Sequence record: MH719082.1
From: Escherichia phage vB_EcoM_IME392
Length of the DNA stretch: 64,000 nucleotides
Direction: 5' to 3' (one strand)
The notes beneath the pieces were generated by a model. That model saw only the letters and a list, made by a program, of their open reading frames with translations, had not been told where the DNA came from and did no database searches. Both the position numbers and the translations under genes were made by a program. Below are positions 1,663 to 29,203 of the stretch, in pieces; position 1 is the stretch's first letter, and every line of letters starts with the position of its first letter.

Positions 1663-1681
1663 TTAAGAATCTTTCCCACAT

Positions 1682-1713
1682 TTTAACAGCCTTTCAAGAC
1701 CCTAAAAGAGCGG
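1682..1713 (-). promoter_or_regulatory. Conserved promoter-like element (copy 1) upstream of kinase gene
   Basis: Plus-strand TTTAACAGCCTTTCAAGACCCTAAAAGAGCGG. On the transcribed strand this reads ...GGCTGTTAAAATG, an extended -10-like TGnTAAAAT, about 20 nt before the RBS. Confidence 0.5.
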
Positions 1714-1739
1714 ACTAAAAAGGCTGGTGTAAATGTGAA

Positions 1740-2711
1740 CTAGCTAAACTTATACCAGCGAGGTCTCATACGGATCTCGTGATTCAGTTTATGTAGTTTC
1801 GAGAATTCGCAGAATGAGTTGGTGAACATCTGACGAGTATAGAACCGCTCATCCTCCGGCATGAAGTGGAACCATTTCTCCGGCTCCCATGCATACCCGA
1901 AATGAGCACATATCTCTTTGATGTTCTGATACCACCATTCCACGAACATCTGGTAGCCGCAAGGAGGGTTCTGGTCATTAAGCATGTACCATACCCCATC
2001 CTGCGTCCCGGGTCCACATACGATAGCATCGTTATCTGTGTACGCAGTCTCTTTAGAGTAGGACATAGTTGCCCAGCATTGATATGCCATGAACGGACCT
2101 AATCCAGATACCTGTAACAGATGCTCGATGGCCTCGGTAGCGAACGGAGACTTCCATGCCAGTAAGATAGGATCACTGTAGGTCTTCACCAGATAGGCTC
2201 TGGCAGCTACACTGTACTTAATATCCTCTGGACATACTTCATTAGCCATCTTAACTGCTGTGCTAAGGAAGTAGGCATTTGATTGCTGTGGAGCAGTGAA
2301 CGGAGGACCATCCTCATAACGACGTAGCTCTTCACGACCCATGTTATGTATGTCGTCATAGCTCATCTCATAAAGAGGAAGGACTCTGCGGAAGCGATCC
2401 ATATATGAATCACCACGGTTTATCATCTGGAAGAGTACCACGTTAAGCGCCTTACTCTCCCAGCTTAGGGAATCGTTCTCCAGAATGTTCTTGATAGCCC
2501 ATACTGTTTCACGATCGTGCTTACGGAACACGTTAGTGAATTTAAACTTACTAATCCACTTATGTTCTGTCCACGGAGGAGGTAGCTTAAGTATCTCCTT
2601 CTTATAATAAACCTCAGTCCGCTCGCGGTTATACTCCACATACTCACGTAGCTCCTCGGGATTTATCATCCCGAGTAACCCGTCGAAGTGCAAACCTAAC
2701 GGTTTAGACAT
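1740..2711 (-). CDS. Hypothetical protein of the DNA-modification module (323 aa, Trp/Tyr-rich)
   Basis: ORF with an upstream promoter-like element and an RBS. Its position lies between the kinase and the BGT-like gene. No motif is recognised by eye. Confidence 0.45.
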   Translation of the reverse strand: MSKPLGLHFDGLLGMINPEELREYVEYNRERTEVYYKKEILKLPPPWTEHKWISKFKFTNVFRKHDRETVWAIKNILENDSLSWESKALNVVLFQMINRGDSYMDRFRRVLPLYEMSYDDIHNMGREELRRYEDGPPFTAPQQSNAYFLSTAVKMANEVCPEDIKYSVAARAYLVKTYSDPILLAWKSPFATEAIEHLLQVSGLGPFMAYQCWATMSYSKETAYTDNDAIVCGPGTQDGVWYMLNDQNPPCGYQMFVEWWYQNIKEICAHFGYAWEPEKWFHFMPEDERFYTRQMFTNSFCEFSKLHKLNHEIRMRPRWYKFS

Positions 2712-4878: not shown

Positions 4879-5490
4879 TTATCCAATTTGACGAACTAAG
4901 CGAAACCCTTCGGCGTACGGCCACTGGGCAGAATATCCACGTAAGGTGGCTAGAGCTAAGATACTCTGGGTATCTCGGTCTGACTTAATCTGGGAGTCGA
5001 ATCGTCCCATAGCCTGGCACTTACACTCAATATCGTCCTTATTCAGACGCTCGAAGTAATTAGGTTCCATCTGACCGAACTGGGTCAGGGACTCGGCATA
5101 CTCATATTCCAGGATAAGCCAGTTATACGCTCGGAGAGCTACACGAGCAGCATGATTAACTAGTTGATGGTCCTGGTGTAGGCTACTGAACGGAATATAG
5201 ACTACATCCGGCCTGATTTTAGCAACATAGTCCGCAATATCCTTAGCCAATTGCGGAATATCCTTCTGAGTCATACCATCGCCTGTGGAGGCATCGTTAC
5301 GCTCCAGGCAATGTACTTCTTTGATATTCGGATAGACACCGAATGCTGCTTCGGCTTCACCACGACGGGTCTCGTCCGGAGCAGTTACTTCGAGGATGAA
5401 AAATTGGTCGTCGCGGAATTTGCTCATAATACCTCCGCAACCCAGAATCTCATCATCGTGATGTGGGCTGATAATCAATCGTGACTTCAT
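4879..5490 (-). CDS. PIG-L/LmbE-family de-N-acetylase (GlcNAc deacetylase-like)
   Basis: Signature SPHHDDEILGCGG near the N-terminus and the second zinc-ligand motif HQDHQ. The 203-aa size is typical of MshB/BshB/LmbE proteins. Confidence 0.75.
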   Translation of the reverse strand: MKSRLIISPHHDDEILGCGGIMSKFRDDQFFILEVTAPDETRRGEAEAAFGVYPNIKEVHCLERNDASTGDGMTQKDIPQLAKDIADYVAKIRPDVVYIPFSSLHQDHQLVNHAARVALRAYNWLILEYEYAESLTQFGQMEPNYFERLNKDDIECKCQAMGRFDSQIKSDRDTQSILALATLRGYSAQWPYAEGFRLVRQIG

Positions 5491-5553: not shown

Positions 5554-5588
5554 CACCTTAACAGCCTTTTAGGTCATCAAACAGGAGG
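5554..5588 (-). promoter_or_regulatory. Conserved promoter-like element (copy 3) upstream of PIG-L gene
   Basis: CACCTTAACAGCCTTTTAGGTCATCAAACAGGAGG. A hairpin/terminator follows at 5497..5532. Confidence 0.45.
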
Positions 5589-6959
5589 AGTTTCCTTAGC
5601 CAAGAATACTTTAGGTACAAAGATCTTGAGGAACCCGAATAGAATACACAATACCCCAATCAGTACCGGAACAGCCGATACAGCTACCAGAGTCTTCGTT
5701 ACAGTTACTACGTCACCACCTGCCCAGTTAAGTGCAGCAGCAACTACACCCATGCTTACAATCCAGAATACACGAGTTCTAGGAGCGGTCATGGACTCTA
5801 CCGTAATACCTGCTGAGTCATGACCTGTAATAAAGAACAGAATCACAGACACGAGGGTAATTACTGAGAATATCCATCCGCCTGGGAAATTAGCCAGAAG
5901 CTGGAAGATATCCTGAGCACCATGTTGCAAACCGGCTACACCGAATACGGTAAACCATACGTTACTGATAATGGTAGGGAACAGTACACATCCCAGGATC
6001 AGTTCGCGAATAGTACGGCCGTAAGAGATACGTGCCACAAACGCTCCGACGAATAATGCCCAACCTACCCAGGCTGCATAGTAAGCATAAGGCCAGCTAG
6101 CCAGCCATTGCTTCTCTTCAGCAGTACTGCCAATGTTTACCGACATAGGAATAATCTGGAGCAGATAGCTGCCAGAATAGGTGATGGTCTTCCAGAGGTA
6201 TTCAAAGAATGTACCACTTACAGCAACGAATGCCATAATAGATAGAGCTACGATTACATTATATCTGGATAACCACTTAACCCCACGATCGACACCAGTT
6301 ACGGCACTAAGTACAGTGCCCAGAGTCAGGAGTGCGATAATGGTGTAAGGACCAACATCCACACCAAGGAACTCTTTAAATCCAGAACTGATCGGGCCTA
6401 CTGCGTAGACGAACGACAGGGTTAAGCCTATGATGGTCGAGAAGAGTAAGCTTATCGTATTAAGGTTATTCAGAGTTCGGGACTTGAATAACTGATTAAG
6501 CGGACGGTCTTCACCACGTACATGCAGTAAGTACCCGAATGCCACCCCTACGACTGCATACACAGCCCATGCATTAAGTCCCCAGTCAAAGAAGGTAGTT
6601 ACCATATTCTGACGTTCGGACATACCCTCCTGATGATGGTACATAGGTTCGAGTACGCCATAATAAATCATGGATACACCCATACCGGTACTAAACATCA
6701 TAGAGTAATAGGTAAAGCGATTGTATTTCGGAGTACCTTTACCCAGCTTAATGTTACCATGTTTGCTGAATACAAAGAATGCCAGGAACGCCAGGAAGAT
6801 CAGCGAAGACCAGGTAAATATGAATCCATACTGAGATATAAATACAGACTTACTCCAGTCCATTACAGCACCAAACTGGGTGGGAGCAAACATAATGGCG
6901 AGTACAATACCCACCGTTACCAGCACCGTCCCCCAGGTAACTACCTTTGAATCGGACAT
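5577..6959 (-). CDS. BCCT-family (betaine/carnitine/choline) secondary transporter
   Basis: 460-aa polytopic membrane protein. N-terminal FSKHGNIKLG motif and the BCCT signature WPYAYYAAWVGWALFVGAFVARISYGRTIREL (cf. W..FYWAWW.SW.PFVG.FIARIS.GRTIRE). Confidence 0.85.
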   Translation of the reverse strand: MSDSKVVTWGTVLVTVGIVLAIMFAPTQFGAVMDWSKSVFISQYGFIFTWSSLIFLAFLAFFVFSKHGNIKLGKGTPKYNRFTYYSMMFSTGMGVSMIYYGVLEPMYHHQEGMSERQNMVTTFFDWGLNAWAVYAVVGVAFGYLLHVRGEDRPLNQLFKSRTLNNLNTISLLFSTIIGLTLSFVYAVGPISSGFKEFLGVDVGPYTIIALLTLGTVLSAVTGVDRGVKWLSRYNVIVALSIMAFVAVSGTFFEYLWKTITYSGSYLLQIIPMSVNIGSTAEEKQWLASWPYAYYAAWVGWALFVGAFVARISYGRTIRELILGCVLFPTIISNVWFTVFGVAGLQHGAQDIFQLLANFPGGWIFSVITLVSVILFFITGHDSAGITVESMTAPRTRVFWIVSMGVVAAALNWAGGDVVTVTKTLVAVSAVPVLIGVLCILFGFLKIFVPKVFLAKETPPV

Positions 6960-24348: not shown

Positions 24349-25140
24349 TCAGTACCGAGGATCAGTATCCTGATAGTCGCGAATTAGGTCATAGACGAGC
24401 ACATCCAGACGAGTAGCATCTTCACGTTTCATGCGGGTAGGTCTGTACATATGGATACATACACAATGCTTAGACCAGACCTTAGCAGTCTGACGCTCCG
24501 TAAGTTCTTTACGGTCGATAATGTACTTCTCGAATGCGTGATAAGAGATAGGCTTTGATACTTCGACATGCTGGCACATATCGAGGAACTGCGGGTAGTC
24601 GTCAGTTAAGAAGCGACTGAATACGTCCTGGTAATAAGAGTAGTTAGGGAATTTACCACCCTGCTCCAGAGATAACGCATGAGTCTCGATCTCCTTCAAC
24701 ATCAGAGCCATAAATTCCTGATTATTGCTGGGAGAGGTCCACATGTTTATCTCGCAGTAATCTAACCGAGGGGAATAAACACGTACCTGAGTCTCGTGAG
24801 GAGTATACGTTTCGTGAGGGCTTCTGATAAAGAGAGTATCAGCATCTACATAGGAGTAACCACGAAGATCCATCATTACCTGAATCTTGAGTCGCAGATA
24901 GTCACATACAGAGGCCATCTTAGCCTTAGTTTTCAGGATATTATACGCCTTCTCCATAATAGGATCTCTGGCGAATAAATCCTGGATCATAACGCAACGG
25001 CAACCTTCGATAATATTCTCTTCGTTATCGATCACCAGTACATGATCATTAGGTCCGTATTTCTGTAAGGACTTAATGCATTCCCGAACATGGATAGGCA
25101 TTTTGGGTCCTACCCAAAGCTGGAAATAATTCTGACTCAT
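24349..25140 (-). CDS. Glycosyltransferase with DXD sugar-binding region (GT32 / Gly_transf_sug-like)
   Basis: N-terminal FQLWVGPKMP (cf. IHQIWIG). DYLRLKIQVMMDLRGYSYVDADTLF matches the D..R..L...GG.Y.D.D region. Confidence 0.5.
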   Translation of the reverse strand: MSQNYFQLWVGPKMPIHVRECIKSLQKYGPNDHVLVIDNEENIIEGCRCVMIQDLFARDPIMEKAYNILKTKAKMASVCDYLRLKIQVMMDLRGYSYVDADTLFIRSPHETYTPHETQVRVYSPRLDYCEINMWTSPSNNQEFMALMLKEIETHALSLEQGGKFPNYSYYQDVFSRFLTDDYPQFLDMCQHVEVSKPISYHAFEKYIIDRKELTERQTAKVWSKHCVCIHMYRPTRMKREDATRLDVLVYDLIRDYQDTDPRY

Positions 25141-25771
25141 AGTTACCTCTATGTTATTTATTTTAAACTGGATAGGGACTAATAAAGTAAATAGTAATTA
25201 AATACTTATTAATCTTCCTCTTATCTAATGCTAAGGGAAGCGTACTCGAGGAGTACAGAAGCTTAGCGAAGAGCGGAGTAACCATTTGATTTAAACAGTC
25301 ACCGTAGAGAGCGAAGGAGTCGCGCCCGCTTGAGGCGGCGCGACCTCCGCTTCACCAATCCTACCGGATGGACGCCTGCGACCACCCGAGCCTACCCCTG
25401 CCTCACTCACTAAAGCCACTTCGGGCTTTACCTCGTTCCGCTACGCGATACGCAGGCAGATAGCTACACTAAGTCCCCTGGAGATGGCTAGTAAGTATCC
25501 GTTACCAGACCATGTCCAACCTAACATTGACGAAGCCAGGGACTAGGCACTCCTCGCCAATAAGCTACATTAGGATTTATGTCCGTATTTCGAAGATAGG
25601 CCGATCGGGGAGACTATGCATTCATCTCTGCTCAACCAGGAAGCACCGATTAGGGTAAATACCCAAACTATCTTCTTAATGTCACTCCTCCCAGACCGCT
25701 TCGGGACTTAGCTTAAGTCTTATCCGAATAATCTGGCATCTACGACGGACCGTAGTGTATGGAGCGTACTG

Positions 25772-25806
25772 CAATTTAACAGCCTTTTGACTCATCAAAA
25801 GAGCGT
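25772..25806 (-). promoter_or_regulatory. Conserved promoter-like element (copy 10) upstream of a non-coding region (25200..25770)
   Basis: CAATTTAACAGCCTTTTGACTCATCAAAAGAGCG. Perfect dyad CTTTTGA-CTCA-TCAAAAG. No ORF lies downstream on the minus strand for about 570 nt. Confidence 0.5.
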
Positions 25807-25924
25807 AATTAGGGCCCGATTATTTCACTTAGCTTCCATCCGTTCGGGCCAACACGGATCGTACATGACGTTACCGTCGTTTCAAGTCACTCGGATTATT
25901 AGTTCCCGGTGCTCATATAAAGAT

Positions 25925-26004
25925 GGTGCCACGTAGGGAATCGAACCCTATATCAGGTAAACGTCTAGCCGTAGACTGCTGAGTGCCCTCAGCTACCCTA
26001 TCAC
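25925..26004 (-). ncRNA. tRNA-like element (T-arm TAGGG-TTCGATT-CCCTA plus CCA-like end), not foldable into a canonical cloverleaf
   Basis: GGGAATCGAACCC on the plus strand. The reverse complement ends ...CCCTACGTGGCACCA, but no complementary 5' acceptor strand was found. Two tight hairpins lie upstream. Confidence 0.3.
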
Positions 26005-26104
26005 TTAACCGAACCATCGGCAAATCTTTCACAGATACTTACACGTGATTTTCTCTGATCGGATCTGGTGATTCCTCGGAGTCGAACCGAGGAGTGGCAT
26101 AATA

Positions 26105-26180
26105 TGGTGGTCCATACTGGTTTCGAACCAGTGACCAAGCGATTATGAGTCGCCTGCTCTCACCACTGAGCTAATGGACC
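26105..26180 (-). tRNA. tRNA-Met (anticodon CAT; elongator type or Ile2-lysidine type)
   Basis: Reverse complement folds as a cloverleaf: acceptor GGTCCAT/ATGGACC, D arm GCTC-AGTGGTGA-GAGC, anticodon stem GGCGA/TCGCT with loop CTCATAA, T arm ACTGG-TTCGAAA-CCAGT, discriminator A, encoded CCA. Confidence 0.8.
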
Positions 26181-26190
26181 GAACTAGATT

Positions 26191-26280
26191 GAGCGATAGG
26201 CTATGGAGTACCTTACCATCGGGCGTCTTTCGCTAAATAGCCCATCATGGGCTACCGCAGGGGCATGACACCTATCGCTC
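26191..26280 (-). ncRNA. Stem-closed structured element (about 90 nt) immediately 5' of tRNA-Met
   Basis: 10-bp closing helix GAGCGATAGG / CCTATCGCTC, with an internal perfect hairpin TAGCCCA-TCA-TGGGCTA. No canonical T-loop, so not a standard tRNA. Confidence 0.35.
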
Positions 26281-26649
26281 AAATTGGTCGGGATCGTGGC
26301 CCACGTCGGAGGATTTGCCAAACTCCCCATTATCATAGCCTAAGCTATCCAGACGGCCGTAACTACCCTGCTCCGGTACATGCGATAATGGGGACGTATC
26401 CAAAGATGTGGAGATCCCGTTAAAATATCTTAAGCTTCTCGCTATGTGTGTCCTACACTCTACCCTTGCGGGGTACCGGAGGATGAATCCGAACTTCCTG
26501 CGACCACACACGGAGGCCCTTGCAGACGTGCTTTATTGCGCTCATCCTGGCATAGCGAGAACTTAAGATATCTATTGATGCGCACCAGATAAGTATTTCC
26601 CAAGCCATGAACTTAATCTGGGATCTTGACCTATCCAGTGCGACTTATG

Positions 26650-26725
26650 TGGTACTCCCTACTGGATTCGAACCAGTGACCGTCGGTTTAGAAGACCGAT
26701 GCTCTATCCTCTGAGCTAAGGGAGC
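26650..26725 (-). tRNA. tRNA-Arg (anticodon TCT)
   Basis: Reverse complement: acceptor GCTCCCT/AGGGAGT (G1-U72), D arm GCTC-AGAGGATA-GAGC, anticodon stem TCGGT/ACCGA with loop CTTCTAA, T arm ACTGG-TTCGAAT-CCAGT, CCA encoded. Confidence 0.8.
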
Positions 26726-26735
26726 TTAACTTTAG

Positions 26736-26802
26736 GATGACCTCTTAGCTTACCATCGCGAAAGCTACATGGAGTGTAGTTAACGTGAACTAAGAGGTCA
26801 TC
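26736..26802 (-). ncRNA. Stem-closed structured element (about 67 nt) immediately 5' of tRNA-Arg
   Basis: 13-bp closing helix GATGACCTCTTAG / CTAAGAGGTCATC, with an internal hairpin CTACA-CTCCA-TGTAG. Confidence 0.35.
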
Positions 26803-27297
26803 ATAAAATCAGTTACTGACGAATTATACTTTCCCAACCATCCACATATACTGCGTTGGCTATGTAAAGAATGCAGAACAAGCCAACGATTAAAGGATTA
26901 ATCATTGTACTTCTCCATTTAATTAAGTTACCTGCTTACTGTTACAGGGACGCCGTTCGTCGCGCCAGATTACCAATTGGCGTATTAAGCCAATCTCGCC
27001 AACCGCGTAACGCCATTGGCTGGTATCACATAGGCTTGTAGCCCTCAGTCAACCTATCCTGAGGATGAAGATCAGATACTCTCTAACGGCGGGATTGATA
27101 GTCCCAGAGTACGATCTCTTTGCCATTCTCGTATGACCTAGGAGACGACTGCCCTGGTTAAGGAGACCAGACAGCTGATATGGTTTAGTTTATTTTTAAT
27201 TTGAGTCCCACTCATACCTTACAGACTCAAGCACTGCAGACCACCATGAAGCCGACTCGTACGCTAACAGTCGACACCACGGATCCATGAAACTCCA

Positions 27298-27340
27298 ACA
27301 ATTTAACAGCCTTTCGACTCATCAAAAGAGTGTTAAATTG
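27298..27340 (-). promoter_or_regulatory. Conserved promoter-like element (copy 11) upstream of the structured non-coding region 26736..27290 and tRNA-Arg
   Basis: CAATTTAACA-GCCTTTCGACTCATCAAAAGAG-TGTTAAATTG. The core is enclosed by a 10-bp inverted repeat and is nearly identical to copy 10. Confidence 0.5.
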
Positions 27341-27481
27341 TCCGCTCCCTATCACCGAGCACTGTGATGATGGGAAAATAGGGAGCGAAGCGATTCCTAA
27401 GTTTTATCTCTTCTCTAAGTGATTAACCGTTACATACGATGTACCTTCTCGAAAGAATTAAGCCGGTATTGGCACTTCAGA

Positions 27482-27517
27482 CACTTTAACAGCCTTTCGA
27501 CCGTACAAAAGAGCGGC
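27482..27517 (-). promoter_or_regulatory. Conserved promoter-like element (copy 12)
   Basis: CACTTTAACAGCCTTTCGACCGTACAAAAGAGCGGCG, the consensus copy. A small hairpin RNA region (27336..27385) lies downstream. Confidence 0.45.
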
Positions 27518-27521
27518 GTAA

Positions 27522-28064
27522 TTAGACGCTCGCCTCAGGCACTTTAACAGCCTTTGGACGTGTAAAAAGAGCGGGATTATACCATTCTGGGGTACGATAG
27601 AAAGAGATCTTACGACCCTCTTTCTTCCAGAAGTAGAATTTATCGTTGAGGTAGTTACGGTACTTCTCGTAGACTGTCTCACCAGGAGCACCTGATACAC
27701 ATGCATACGGAGTCATATCGGTCTCTGGACCTACTACCAGATTTTTAGGTAGTGCCACAAGACGGGATAAAATTTCTTCGGTTGCATGGAGCCGTCCGGT
27801 ACGTTCAAAGAATAGCATGCATAAATAGCTTGCCAAGTCACGAACGAAGTTGTAGTTACCTGACGATTCACGAACCCACTTAGCACACGGATGATTAACA
27901 TGCGTCTGCTTATAAATACCCTCGATAGCGTTTTCGCCATCCAGAACATGATGAGCAGTAGATAATAACTGAGCACACTCAATAATCATTTTATTCTGGT
28001 GCATAGGCATACAGTGGTCCATAGCACATTCTAACGCATCTTCGTGAGTACGGAAAATATTCAC
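27522..28064 (-). CDS. Pyrimidine-dimer DNA glycosylase (T4 DenV / endonuclease V-like)
   Basis: Pyr_excise-like segment LSTAHHV...THVNHPCAKWVRESSGNY and C-terminal ...YRTPEWY (T4 denV ends RPTWYKYYG). Confidence 0.45.
   Translation of the reverse strand: MNIFRTHEDALECAMDHCMPMHQNKMIIECAQLLSTAHHVLDGENAIEGIYKQTHVNHPCAKWVRESSGNYNFVRDLASYLCMLFFERTGRLHATEEILSRLVALPKNLVVGPETDMTPYACVSGAPGETVYEKYRNYLNDKFYFWKKEGRKISFYRTPEWYNPALFTRPKAVKVPEASV
27540..27574 (-). promoter_or_regulatory. Conserved promoter-like element (copy 13), tandem with copy 12 and inside the 3' end of the DenV-like ORF
   Basis: CACTTTAACAGCCTTTGGACGTGTAAAAAGAGCGG. Confidence 0.4.
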
Positions 28065-28812: not shown

Positions 28813-29153
28813 TACTTCTTGCCCATCTTAGCCTGCATAGCACGGACGGTATCCATGGCGCTGGCCAATTTGGCTGAAGTATCCTGCGGACCATCTTCTT
28901 CTAGCTGTTTCTTAAGGGACTCCATACGATCAGTAGTACCCTTAGTATCCATCTCGATTAATTCGTTGATGGTCGAACCACCCACGTTAGGTAACTTACC
29001 CAGCTGAGTAAGATCCTTAACTTCTGGGATTTTAACATGAAGTTGAATAGACTGGGATGCTCTCGCGAACGACCCAGCACGACGATTGTCTCCTACCTTA
29101 TTGTACAGGGAAGATAGGTTACCCAGGAACGTAATGATATCAGCAGTTTTCAT
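28812..29153 (-). CDS. Hypothetical protein (start MKTADIITF with RBS GGAGGA)
   Basis: ORF 28812..29195, trimmed to ATG 29153 preceded by GGAGGAATCAAAT. Promoter-like element at 29170..29203 is upstream. Confidence 0.45.
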   Translation of the reverse strand: MKTADIITFLGNLSSLYNKVGDNRRAGSFARASQSIQLHVKIPEVKDLTQLGKLPNVGGSTINELIEMDTKGTTDRMESLKKQLEEDGPQDTSAKLASAMDTVRAMQAKMGKK

Positions 29154-29169
29154 ATTTGATTCCTCCAAC

Positions 29170-29203
29170 AAGTTAACAGCCTTTCGACCGTACAAAAGAG
29201 CGG
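29170..29203 (-). promoter_or_regulatory. Conserved promoter-like element (copy 15) at the divergent early/late junction, upstream of gene 28812..29153
   Basis: AGTTAACAGCCTTTCGACCGTACAAAAGAGCGG. Confidence 0.5.

What the first reader, a model, noticed from the sequence alone, without database searches (positions are those of the whole stretch)
25141..27521. A 2.3-kb protein-free island: two canonical tRNAs, tRNA-like fragments and at least four promoter-driven structured RNAs
No ORF of 60 aa or more is convincing here. ORF 26272..26511 overlaps a structured element and has no promoter or RBS context.

Four copies of the conserved promoter-like element (25772, 27298, 27482, 27540) point into stretches with no genes but abundant long-range helices:
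- 25200..25770 contains a GC-rich hairpin GAGTCGCGCCCGC/GCGGCGCGACCTC at about 25317..25349.
- 26850..27250 contains GCGTTGGCT...AGCCAACG and CCAATTGGCG...CGCCATTGG helices.
- 27336..27385 contains GCTCCCTAT...ATAGGGAGC.

This is reminiscent of the T4 tRNA region with its stable 'species 1/2' RNAs, but much larger. The ncRNAs are unclassified. Candidates include ribozyme-like RNAs, group I intron remnants or regulatory sRNAs.
Basis: seen in the sequence. Interest (0 to 1): 0.65.

Follow-up and report, generated by a model that had tools for sequence, protein, structure and literature searches.

The report
Phage tRNA operon with structured spacers
This 2.4-kb gene-free stretch of an E. coli phage is a leftward-transcribed tRNA operon: two rare-codon tRNAs are embedded in hairpin spacers and tRNA-like RNAs also found in unrelated phages, and a conserved 630-base leader of unknown role follows.

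Summary
The observation largely holds, with corrections. The stretch 25141-27575 has no credible protein gene. It carries two tRNAs and four copies of a motif that occurs 14 times in the window. Everything reads on the minus strand.

It is best described as a phage tRNA/stable-RNA operon, comparable to the T4 tRNA region.
- The tRNAs are Arg(UCU) and a CAU tRNA that looks like Ile2. Both decode codons the phage uses often.
- Each tRNA is flanked within 1-8 nt by hairpins.
- Four small modules (S1, S2, S3, U135) have homologues inside tRNA clusters of unrelated phages: Kuttervirus Vi01, N4-like phiEaP8 and T4-like JC221. Their stems show compensatory changes. None is in Rfam.
- U135 (135 nt) and M10 (180 nt) end in an acceptor-like stem plus CCA.
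- Close relatives gain and lose whole modules, with junctions at CCA ends.

The 630-nt leader F sits between P4 and a glycosyltransferase-like gene. Its first 332 nt are 97.6-98.5% identical across lineages, against 83-89% at fourfold sites. Its fold and role are unresolved.

Folding-energy z-scores do not distinguish the island from coding DNA. Ribozyme and group I intron readings find no support.

Likely mechanism (inferred): a multi-promoter precursor cut by RNase E and RNase P, with the hairpins as processing units.

The parts
27540..27575 (-). P1, promoter-like motif (CGCTCTTTTTACACGTCCAAAGGCTGTTAAAGTG)
   Evidence: Repeat family D1. One of 14 minus-strand copies upstream of genes.
27482..27517 (-). 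P2, tandem promoter-like motif 58 nt downstream of P1
   Evidence: EP_H11 and L067 have a single copy here.
27334..27481 (-). M1 leader. It holds a conserved inverted repeat GGTACAT..ATGTAAC with an SD + AUG-UAA mini-ORF (27430-27435) and the hairpin 27344-27386.
   Evidence: Read. About 75% similar to L009 over 27555-27429. 90-94% identical to EP_H11 and L067.
27299..27333 (-). P3, promoter-like motif, itself part of a 20-nt inverted repeat
   Evidence: D1, I3.
26931..27298 (-). M3, a 368-nt clade-specific non-coding RNA segment. Its first hairpin (about 27275-27251) shows compensatory changes.
   Evidence: 89% identical to EP_H11 and L067. Pairs 25-47, 26-46 and 28-44 are kept through changes. 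No match outside the clade.
26818..26930 (-). M4, a variable insert found only in the window and L070/L071. It holds a 30-aa hydrophobic ORF (26813-26905) with a GGAG ribosome-binding site, and the hairpin 26853-26888.
   Evidence: No tblastn homologue.
26731..26807 (-). M5, a leader hairpin ending 5 nt before tRNA-Arg. Its core is CTCCATGTAGCTTTCGCGATGGTAAGC.
   Evidence: Inverted repeat I2. The core is identical in L009 and EP_H11 while the outer stems differ.
26650..26725 (-). tRNA-Arg (anticodon UCU, reads AGA)
   Evidence: ARAGORN; Rfam 71.3 bits.
26574..26646 (-). S1, a spacer hairpin starting 8 nt after the CCA of tRNA-Arg
   Evidence: About 81% identical to Kuttervirus Vi01 between tRNA-Tyr and tRNA-Ser. 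Four double and three single compensations in the outer stem. One further compensation within Kuttervirus.
26431..26573 (-). Element closed by a 23-bp inverted repeat (AGATATCTTAAGTTCTCGCTATG / CATAGCGAGAAGCTTAAGATAT); found only in the window and L070
   Evidence: Fold. Absent from EP_H11 and L067.
26285..26419 (-). U135, a 135-nt RNA with a 7-bp terminal stem CGGGAUC/GAUCCCG followed by A and CCA
   Evidence: Homologue in T4-like Yersinia phage JC221 after tRNA-Gly, with 10 pairs changed on both sides. Covariance model R1 finds only this clade and JC221.
26186..26284 (-). S2, a spacer hairpin (CCA|AUUUGAG...CUCAAU) that starts 1 nt after the CCA of U135; its stem closes about 8 nt before the CAU tRNA
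   Evidence: 83% identical over 105 nt to Erwinia N4-like phage phiEaP8, directly after its tRNA-Tyr. Compensatory pairs.
26105..26180 (-). tRNA with anticodon CAU, called Met but probably Ile2 (lysidine, reads AUA)
   Evidence: The best E. coli matches are annotated tRNA-Ile next to tRNA-Arg.
25925..26104 (-). M10, a tRNA-like 180-nt unit with closing stem GCCAC/GUGGC followed by ACCA and two T-arm-like hairpins
   Evidence: Fold. Cleanly absent in L067 and L068, with the junction at the CACCA ends.
25807..25924 (-). M11, a hypervariable spacer. It includes the S3 hairpin (about 25815-25855, GGCCCGA...GUGAAAUAAUCGGGCC).
   Evidence: 72% identical even to L070. S3 is 79% similar to Vi01 upstream of tRNA-Gln.
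25772..25806 (-). P4, promoter-like motif
25141..25771 (-). F, a 630-nt leader or ncRNA between P4 and the 263-aa gene. It comprises a near-invariant 5' part (25440-25771), a variable part, a GC-rich 17-bp hairpin (25309-25353) and an AT-rich tail with the ribosome-binding site.
   Evidence: Alignment of 6 genomes. Identity 97.6-98.5% against 83-89% at fourfold sites. No ORF. No homologue in phages, plasmids, E. coli or Rfam.

Best explanation
The island is a leftward-transcribed phage tRNA/stable-RNA operon, followed by a long conserved leader.

Transcription (inferred). Repeated promoter-like motifs drive it: P1/P2, P3 and P4. Each has an extended -10-like TGTTAAA(g/t)T preceded by a CTCTTTTG...AAAGG stem-loop. 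No intrinsic terminator lies between them.

Content (shown). The transcript would carry two rare-codon tRNAs: Arg-UCU for AGA and a CAU tRNA, probably Ile2, for AUA. They are embedded in autonomous structured modules:
- hairpin spacers S1, S2, S3 and M5, which sit 1-8 nt from tRNA ends;
- tRNA-like RNAs U135 and M10, which end in an acceptor-like stem plus CCA.

Processing (inferred). AU-rich single-stranded linkers follow each CCA (AUUUG, CAUAAG, UAUUAUG, UCUUUAUAUG). I propose that host RNase E cuts there. The neighbouring hairpin would act as the adjacent structured unit that RNase E needs for efficient cleavage of polycistronic tRNA precursors. RNase P would cut at the 5' side of each acceptor-like stem. 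This would release the tRNAs plus stable by-product RNAs comparable to T4 RNAC/RNAD.

Exchange (shown). The modules are swapped horizontally between tRNA clusters of unrelated enterobacterial phages. They are gained and lost as cassettes, by recombination at CCA ends, conserved hairpin cores and promoter repeats.

F (inferred). F is the 5' leader of the 263-aa gene or a separate ncRNA. Its 332-nt 5' part is under purifying selection. Its function is not resolved.
For: Strand and motif:
- All genes, tRNAs and the 14 motif copies lie on the minus strand. The motifs sit in short intergenic gaps, often followed by GGAGG and ATG.

tRNAs and codon use:
- The two tRNAs are canonical.
- The CAU tRNA matches prophage tRNA-Ile next to tRNA-Arg in E. 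coli.
- The phage uses AGA at 7.8 and AUA at 8.9 per 1000 codons.

Transcript continuity:
- No intrinsic terminators were found.

Modules shared with unrelated phage tRNA clusters, with compensatory stem changes:
- S1 with Vi01.
- S2 with phiEaP8.
- U135 with JC221.
- S3 with Vi01.
- The M5 core is shared with L009 while the outer stems differ.

tRNA-like ends:
- U135 and M10 end in acceptor-like stems plus CCA.

Cassette behaviour:
- L067 lacks 26930-26430 and 26100-25929 cleanly.
- EP_H11 swaps tRNA-Arg for tRNA-Gly and adds others.
- L009 has six promoters and other modules.

Processing logic:
- RNase E needs an adjacent tRNA or simple stem-loop to cleave 3' of a tRNA (PMC9841416).

F conservation:
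- 5-8 differences in 332 nt, where 37-57 would be expected at the fourfold-site rate.
Against: - No transcript data exist. Promoter identity, read-through and processing sites are all inferred.
- M1, M3 and the U135+S2 block evolve at roughly the fourfold-site rate within the clade: 89-94% identical.
- With the window's own minimum-free-energy fold as reference, about half of the changed pairs in M3 are broken.
- Folding-energy z-scores do not set the island apart from coding DNA.
- Several modules are dispensable in natural relatives.
- The EP_H11 copy of the M5 hairpin is a chimera with a broken stem.
- The fold of F has no clear covariation support, and its 5' part has z = -1.4.
- Each cross-family comparison rests on one or very few independent sequences.
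Confidence: 0.55

Rival explanations
1. The non-tRNA modules are mostly non-functional debris of a fast-turning tRNA cluster. They would be decayed tRNAs, recombination scars and hitch-hiking spacers, transcribed only because they lie between promoters and tRNAs.
For: - Near-neutral divergence of M1, M3 and the U135+S2 block.
- Presence/absence polymorphism among close relatives.
- Truncated tRNA 3' halves in M10.
- A chimeric, broken hairpin in EP_H11.
- z-scores no better than coding DNA.
Against: - S1, S2 and U135 keep their stems through multiple two-sided changes across phage families that share no other DNA.
- Hairpins sit at fixed short distances from tRNA ends in four phage lineages.
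- The 5' part of F is far more conserved than fourfold sites.
Confidence: 0.2
2. Some modules (U135, M10, F, M3) are trans-acting RNAs. They could be regulators of host or phage mRNAs, or tRNA-mimicking decoys that absorb host tRNA-targeting defence nucleases or tRNA-binding enzymes.
For: - Acceptor-like stem plus CCA, and T-arm mimicry.
- Horizontal spread among phages.
- T4 RNAC/RNAD are made from the tRNA region and have no known function (PMC3014915, PMC9697503).
- F has its own promoter and is strongly conserved.
Against: - No complementarity of 13 nt or more to other parts of the window, apart from the promoter repeats.
- No match to any known sRNA, Y-RNA-like or antitoxin family.
- Modules are dispensable in relatives.
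Confidence: 0.15
3. F marks a transcription-primed replication origin, of the ColE1 RNA II or T4 oriF type. P4 would make a long structured, G-rich transcript that forms an R-loop near the GC hairpin and AT-rich tail and primes the phage A-family DNA polymerase.
For: - A non-coding, DNA-level-conserved 332-bp block directly behind a promoter.
- The transcript strand is G-rich (GC skew).
- The AT-rich tail has GC 0.39.
- Position beside the helicase and replication genes, close to the divergent junction.
- The predicted RNA fold has little covariation support.
Against: - No iterons or repeats.
- The G-richness equals that of neighbouring minus-strand genes.
- The cumulative-skew minimum lies at about 29,000-29,200, not here.
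- The related phage Ab1-TPeters has no island at the syntenic place.
Confidence: 0.07
4. The island hides small protein genes (30-aa ORFs at 26813-26905 and 27196-27288, and the 79-aa ORF 26272-26511), so it is not protein-free.
For: - GGAG ribosome-binding site 7 nt before the ATG of the 30-aa hydrophobic ORF.
- GGAG + ATG directly after P3.
Against: - The first ORF is missing in EP_H11 and L067 and has no homologue.
- The P3 ORF is frameshifted in EP_H11 and its codons change freely while the hairpin is kept.
- The 79-aa ORF overlaps U135.
Confidence: 0.03

Closest known systems
Bacteriophage T4 tRNA region with stable RNAs RNAC (species 1) and RNAD (species 2)
   Same: Both are phage tRNA gene clusters that also encode non-tRNA small RNAs on the same strand. 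Some of those RNAs have tRNA-like T-arms or ends. Their functions are unknown (PMC3014915, PMC9697503). A T4-like phage (JC221) carries a homologue of U135 next to tRNA-Gly.
   Different: - There is no sequence or covariance-model similarity to T4 rnaC/rnaD.
- This island has only two tRNAs in 2.4 kb, long hairpin spacers, four internal promoter repeats and a 630-nt conserved leader.
- The T4 tRNAs are packed almost end to end.
E. coli polycistronic tRNA operons processed by RNase E and RNase P
   Same: Single-stranded AU-rich linkers follow the CCA, and structured units flank them. RNase E cleavage 3' of a tRNA needs an adjacent tRNA or simple stem-loop (PMC9841416).
   Different: Here dedicated hairpins, rather than neighbouring tRNAs, would supply the adjacent structure. 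This is untested, and the hairpins are themselves horizontally shared modules.
PeSL composite promoter/stem-loop cassettes of T4-type phages (PMC2839356, PMC4122927)
   Same: - A short repeated motif combines a stem-loop and an early-type promoter.
- It is scattered upstream of genes.
- Copy number and neighbouring content differ between close relatives: P1/P2 against one copy, six copies in L009, and the replaced M11 abuts P4.
   Different: - The motif sequence and the phage lineage are different.
- Most indel junctions here lie at tRNA-type CCA ends or hairpin cores rather than at the promoter motif.
- The flanked cargo is RNA modules, not ORFs.
Lambdoid/Stx prophage rare-codon tRNA trio (ileZ-argN-argO)
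   Same: The pairing is the same: a CAU-anticodon Ile2-type tRNA with an Arg-UCU tRNA. These are the best E. coli matches.
   Different: Only about 81-84% identity, confined to the tRNAs. The spacers are not shared with E. coli genomes.

Membership tests
tRNA (Rfam RF00005) | Cloverleaf covariance-model score above the gathering threshold (29 bits), with an anticodon | tested here: met
   26653-26725 scores 71.3 bits (UCU) and 26108-26180 scores 70.3 bits (CAU). M10 and U135 do not reach any threshold, even at E<=10, so they are tRNA-like, not tRNAs.
tRNA-Ile2 (lysidine, CAU anticodon) rather than tRNA-Met | Body resembles ileX/ileZ-type tRNAs; modified by TilS | tested here: inconclusive
   The best E. 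coli matches are annotated tRNA-Ile beside tRNA-Arg. ARAGORN calls Met on the anticodon alone. The modification cannot be tested here.
T4 RNAC/RNAD stable RNAs | Encoded within a phage tRNA cluster on the tRNA strand | tested here: met
   U135, M10, S1 and S2 lie between or next to the tRNAs on the minus strand.
T4 RNAC/RNAD stable RNAs | Sequence or structure homology to T4 rnaC/rnaD | tested here: not met
   No alignment. Covariance model R1 gives no hit in the T4 tRNA region.
T4 RNAC/RNAD stable RNAs | Accumulate as discrete stable RNAs processed from tRNA precursors | not testable with these tools
   Needs Northern blots or RNA-seq of infected cells.
Group I intron and other ribozymes, riboswitches, GOLLD/ROOL, tmRNA, 6S, Y-RNA-like (Rfam 15) | Match to the family covariance model | tested here: not met
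   Only tRNA passes the gathering threshold. Scans at E<=10 give only chance-level hits: mir-, snoRNA, lncRNA, SIB at 16.8 bits, CC1840 at 21.7 bits. ARAGORN finds no tmRNA at default settings.
PeSL-like promoter/stem-loop shuffling cassette | Repeated composite stem-loop + promoter motif upstream of genes | tested here: met
   14 copies, all in one orientation, in intergenic gaps. The CTTTTG(A)...(T)CAAAAG inverted repeat lies inside the motif.
PeSL-like promoter/stem-loop shuffling cassette | Indel or replacement breakpoints between close relatives coincide with the motif | tested here: inconclusive
   In favour: promoter copy number varies (2 in the window, 1 in EP_H11 and L067, 6 in L009), and the M11 replacement abuts P4. 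Against: the two large L067 deletions end at CCA and hairpin sequences, not at motifs.
Sigma-70 promoter | -35 and -10 hexamers with 16-18 nt spacing | tested here: not met
   The consensus scan does not pick up the motif. It has only an extended -10-like TGTTAAAgT. Which polymerase or factor reads it is unknown.

The most novel reading that the evidence does not exclude
Two readings remain open.

1. S1, S2, S3 and U135 are members of undescribed, horizontally mobile RNA families specific to phage tRNA clusters. They would actively control maturation of phage tRNAs, or act as tRNA-mimicking decoys against host tRNA-targeting defences.

2. The near-invariant 332-nt 5' part of F is a new large functional phage RNA, or an RNA-primed origin element, specific to this group of phages with hypermodified thymidine.
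Probability: 0.25. Interest if true: 0.65.

Novelty: new variant of a known kind. Interest (0 to 1): 0.42.

Why it matters
Phage tRNA clusters are now seen as tools for codon supply and for escaping host tRNA-cleaving defences. The DNA between the tRNAs is usually left unannotated.

Here, the spacers around phage tRNAs are discrete structured modules with compensatory evolution. Unrelated phages share them: an RP13-like coliphage, Kuttervirus, an N4-like Erwinia phage and a T4-like Yersinia phage. They are absent from Rfam.

If they guide RNase E or RNase P processing, or mimic tRNAs, they would be a general and overlooked layer of phage tRNA biology. They might also be relatives in kind of the still unexplained T4 RNAC/RNAD.

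The conserved F leader is a separate candidate for a new functional RNA or DNA element.

Tried and rejected
Family and homology searches:
- Rfam at gathering and at E<=10, on the whole island and on sub-windows: nothing but tRNAs.
- ARAGORN with relaxed thresholds, introns and tmRNA: only low-quality calls.
- F, M1 and M3 against phages, plasmids and E. coli genomes: only EP_H11.
- tblastn of the 30-aa ORF: no match.
- T4 rnaC/rnaD homology: rejected.

Searches for relatives:
- Flanking proteins and terminase in IMG/VR: no close relatives.
- A tandem-promoter pattern in IMG/VR and JGI metagenomes returned only unrelated, regularly spaced arrays (CRISPR-like spacing; not inspected individually). 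None carried the full motif.
- Core patterns of U135, S2 and S1 in IMG/VR: two chance hits for U135, phiEaP8 itself, and Kutterviruses only.
- 20-22-nt cores of F and U135 in 185,579 genomes: none.
- Terminase relatives at 72% identity or less (L010-L015, Ab1-TPeters, RP13) have no island beside the terminase.

Structure and function tests:
- Folding-energy z-scores as evidence of structure: rejected after the coding-region control.
- Antisense targets of island RNAs within the window: none of 13 nt or more.
- ORFs in F: none.
Full report
**What is at the coordinates**

All ORFs flanking 25141-27521 are on the minus strand: a 263-aa gene at 24349-25140 and a 180-aa gene at 27522-28064. Both tRNAs are also on the minus strand: CAU at 26105-26180 and UCU at 26650-26725.

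The only minus-strand ORF of 60 aa or more inside the region is 26272-26511. It overlaps an RNA module conserved in another phage, and its upstream part lies in the 26431-26649 segment that the nearest relative lacks or has replaced.

The core TTTAACAGCCTTT occurs 14 times in the window, always on the + strand, against 0.09 expected. Read on the minus strand it is cCGCTCTTTTGnnnnnTCnAAAGGCTGTTAAanTG. It sits in short gaps upstream of minus-strand genes and is often followed by GGAGG and ATG. It is therefore a plausible promoter with an extended -10-like TGTTAAAgT. The sigma-70 consensus scan does not pick it up, and no intrinsic terminators are found in the island.

**Which phage**

Only one record in the phage collection is closely related: Escherichia phage EP_H11, at 95% identity over 20 kb. 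The terminase relates more distantly to Acinetobacter phage Ab1-TPeters and Ralstonia phage RP13. A paper places EP_H11 and vB_EcoM_IME392 in the RP13/YerA41-like phages with hypermodified thymidine (PMC12686479).

Protein look-ups gave further assemblies of the same clade that contain the island:
- L067/L068;
- L069;
- L070/L071, which share the window's architecture at 98% identity;
- L009, a more distant relative with a terminase 87% identical.

**Module map and turnover**

In transcript order:
- P1 and P2
- M1
- P3
- M3
- M4
- M5 hairpin
- tRNA-Arg
- S1 hairpin
- an element closed by a 23-bp inverted repeat
- U135
- S2 hairpin
- CAU tRNA
- M10
- M11, which includes S3
- P4
- F
- the 263-aa gene

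Relatives differ by whole modules:
- L067 lacks 26930-26430 (M4 through the inverted-repeat element) and 26100-25929 (M10). The second junction lies at the CACCA ends. L067 carries only the CAU tRNA.
- EP_H11 has tRNA-Gly where the window has tRNA-Arg, plus a tRNA-Arg and an odd tRNA-like gene elsewhere.
- L009 has six promoter copies and mostly different modules.
- M11 is only 72% identical between the window and L070, although the flanks are 98-100% identical.

**Homologues in unrelated phages**

BLAST of the tRNA-free segment 26181-26649 gave matches inside tRNA clusters of other phage families.
- S1 lies 8 nt after the CCA of tRNA-Arg. It matches Kuttervirus Vi01 between tRNA-Tyr and tRNA-Ser. 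The inner core is conserved. The 12-bp outer stem keeps pairing through four two-sided and three one-sided changes. A further C-G to U-A exchange occurs within Kutterviruses.
- S2 (CCA|AUUUGAG...CUCAAU) is 83% identical over 105 nt to the N4-like Erwinia phage phiEaP8. There it directly follows tRNA-Tyr, and the other phiEaP8 tRNAs are followed by the same (A/G)UUUGA start.
- U135 has a 7-bp terminal stem CGGGAUC/GAUCCCG followed by A and CCA. Its homologue lies after tRNA-Gly in the T4-like Yersinia phage JC221, with ten pairs changed on both sides, including the whole terminal stem. EP_H11 lengthens an internal helix by matching insertions on both strands.
- S3, in M11, resembles a hairpin upstream of Vi01 tRNA-Gln, with two G-C to A-U exchanges.
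- The M5 leader hairpin shares a 27-nt core with L009, while the outer stems are different but complementary.
- M10 folds with a closing stem GCCAC/GUGGC followed by ACCA and two T-arm-like hairpins.

None of these matches an Rfam family. U135 is not alignable to T4 rnaC/rnaD, and its covariance model finds nothing in T4, Vi01 or phiEaP8. Pattern scans of IMG/VR and of 185,579 genomes found no further true copies of U135 or S2.

**Controls that weaken the structure claim**
- Island tiles of 300 nt have a mean folding z-score of about -2.5. Coding tiles of the same phage average -1.7, with sd 1.5 and a minimum of -5.5. Thermodynamics alone does not mark the island.
- Within the clade, M1, M3 and the U135+S2 block are 89-94% identical. 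That is about the rate of fourfold sites in flanking genes: pooled 83% against EP_H11 and 89% against L067.
- With the window's own minimum-free-energy fold as reference, about half of the changed pairs in M3 are broken, although 3-4 double compensations occur. The first M3 hairpin keeps all of its changed pairs.

**F**

The first 332 nt after P4 differ at only 5-8 positions from EP_H11, L067 and L069. At the fourfold-site rate, 37-57 differences would be expected. The 3' part is variable. It contains a 17-bp GC-rich hairpin whose stem is invariant and whose loop varies.

F has no ORF. It has no homologue in phages, plasmids, E. coli genomes, 185,579 species genomes or Rfam. Its 5' part has no exceptional folding energy (z = -1.4).

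A few helices show compatible or compensatory changes. One example is AUUGRCGAGG/CYUCGUCAAU with three compatible changes. The minimum-free-energy fold as a whole is not supported. No motif copy lies between the hairpin and the 263-aa gene, so F is at least its 5' leader.

**Function of the tRNAs**

The best E. coli matches to the pair are prophage tRNA-Ile plus tRNA-Arg, so the CAU tRNA is probably Ile2. The phage uses AGA at 7.8 and AUA at 8.9 per 1000 codons. From general knowledge, both are rare codons in E. coli.

**Mechanism proposed**

Shown:
- strand;
- motif repetition;
- the tRNAs;
- module boundaries;
- cross-family homology with compensatory changes;
- cassette turnover;
- conservation of F.

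Inferred:
- The motifs are promoters.
- The island is made as a multi-promoter precursor.
- RNase E cuts in the AU-rich linkers after each CCA, with the adjoining hairpin acting as the structured neighbour that RNase E requires (PMC9841416).
- RNase P cuts before each acceptor-like stem.
- U135 and M10 are released as stable tRNA-like RNAs, comparable to T4 RNAC/RNAD, whose roles are still unknown (PMC3014915, PMC9697503).
- The repeated promoter/stem-loop motif and the CCA ends serve as recombination points, in the manner of PeSLs (PMC2839356, PMC4122927).

**Verdict**

The island is real and non-coding, but it is a variant of a known kind: a phage tRNA/stable-RNA operon. It is not a set of ribozymes or intron remnants.

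Two points go beyond what is annotated:
- the structured tRNA-flanking modules shared across phage families;
- the strongly conserved F leader.

Both need transcript and processing data.

Noticed in passing
window 5577-6959 (-): A 460-aa BCCT betaine/carnitine/choline transporter (Pfam E = 1e-92) sits among the phage replication genes. This is an unusual auxiliary gene for a lytic coliphage.
   Followed up: no
L001:7662-7746 (-), L009:318-402 (-), L073:~1669-1757 (+): A tRNA-like gene has a roughly 24-nt insertion in the anticodon arm (CAGGAAAGYTTCGAGAGAACAAGGTGYCTG). It is conserved between EP_H11/L009 and Kuttervirus Vi01, while the acceptor stems differ. Rfam tRNA scores 52-53 bits for the EP_H11 and L009 copies. 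It is absent from the window.
   Followed up: partly
window 26813-26905 (-): A 30-aa hydrophobic ORF (MINPLIVGLFCILYIANAVYVDGWESIIRQ) has a GGAG ribosome-binding site. It is present only in the window and L070/L071 and has no tblastn homologue. A chance-level Rfam SIB_RNA hit overlaps it (16.8 bits).
   Followed up: partly
window 27427-27448 (-): An SD (GAAGG) followed by AUG-UAA forms a 'start-stop' mini-ORF inside an inverted repeat GGTACAT..ATGTAAC, downstream of P2. It is conserved in the distant relative L009. It may be an operator or a translational element.
   Followed up: no
window 25806-25928 (-): M11 is about 72% identical between the window and L070, although the flanks are 98-100% identical. 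This is a replacement hot spot directly upstream of P4.
   Followed up: partly
L001:7828-7916 (-): The leader hairpin before tRNA-Gly in EP_H11 is a chimera. Its 5' arm is of the window type and its 3' arm of the L009 type, joined in the conserved 27-nt core, so the outer stem no longer pairs.
   Followed up: partly
window 1-29200 (-) versus 29293-64000 (+): All 14 promoter-like motifs lie upstream of minus-strand (replication/early-type) genes. None lies in the + strand structural module. The motif therefore marks one temporal or regulatory class.
   Followed up: partly
L009, L068, L069, L070, L071: Several public short-read assemblies of related phages break inside this island. Repeated promoter and tRNA sequences are the probable cause, so the island may be under-represented in assembled data.
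   Followed up: no
L067:~4965-4985: A run of about 15 G inside the U135 homologue of the ENA contig. It is either an assembly artefact or a real homopolymer expansion in the internal helix.
   Followed up: no
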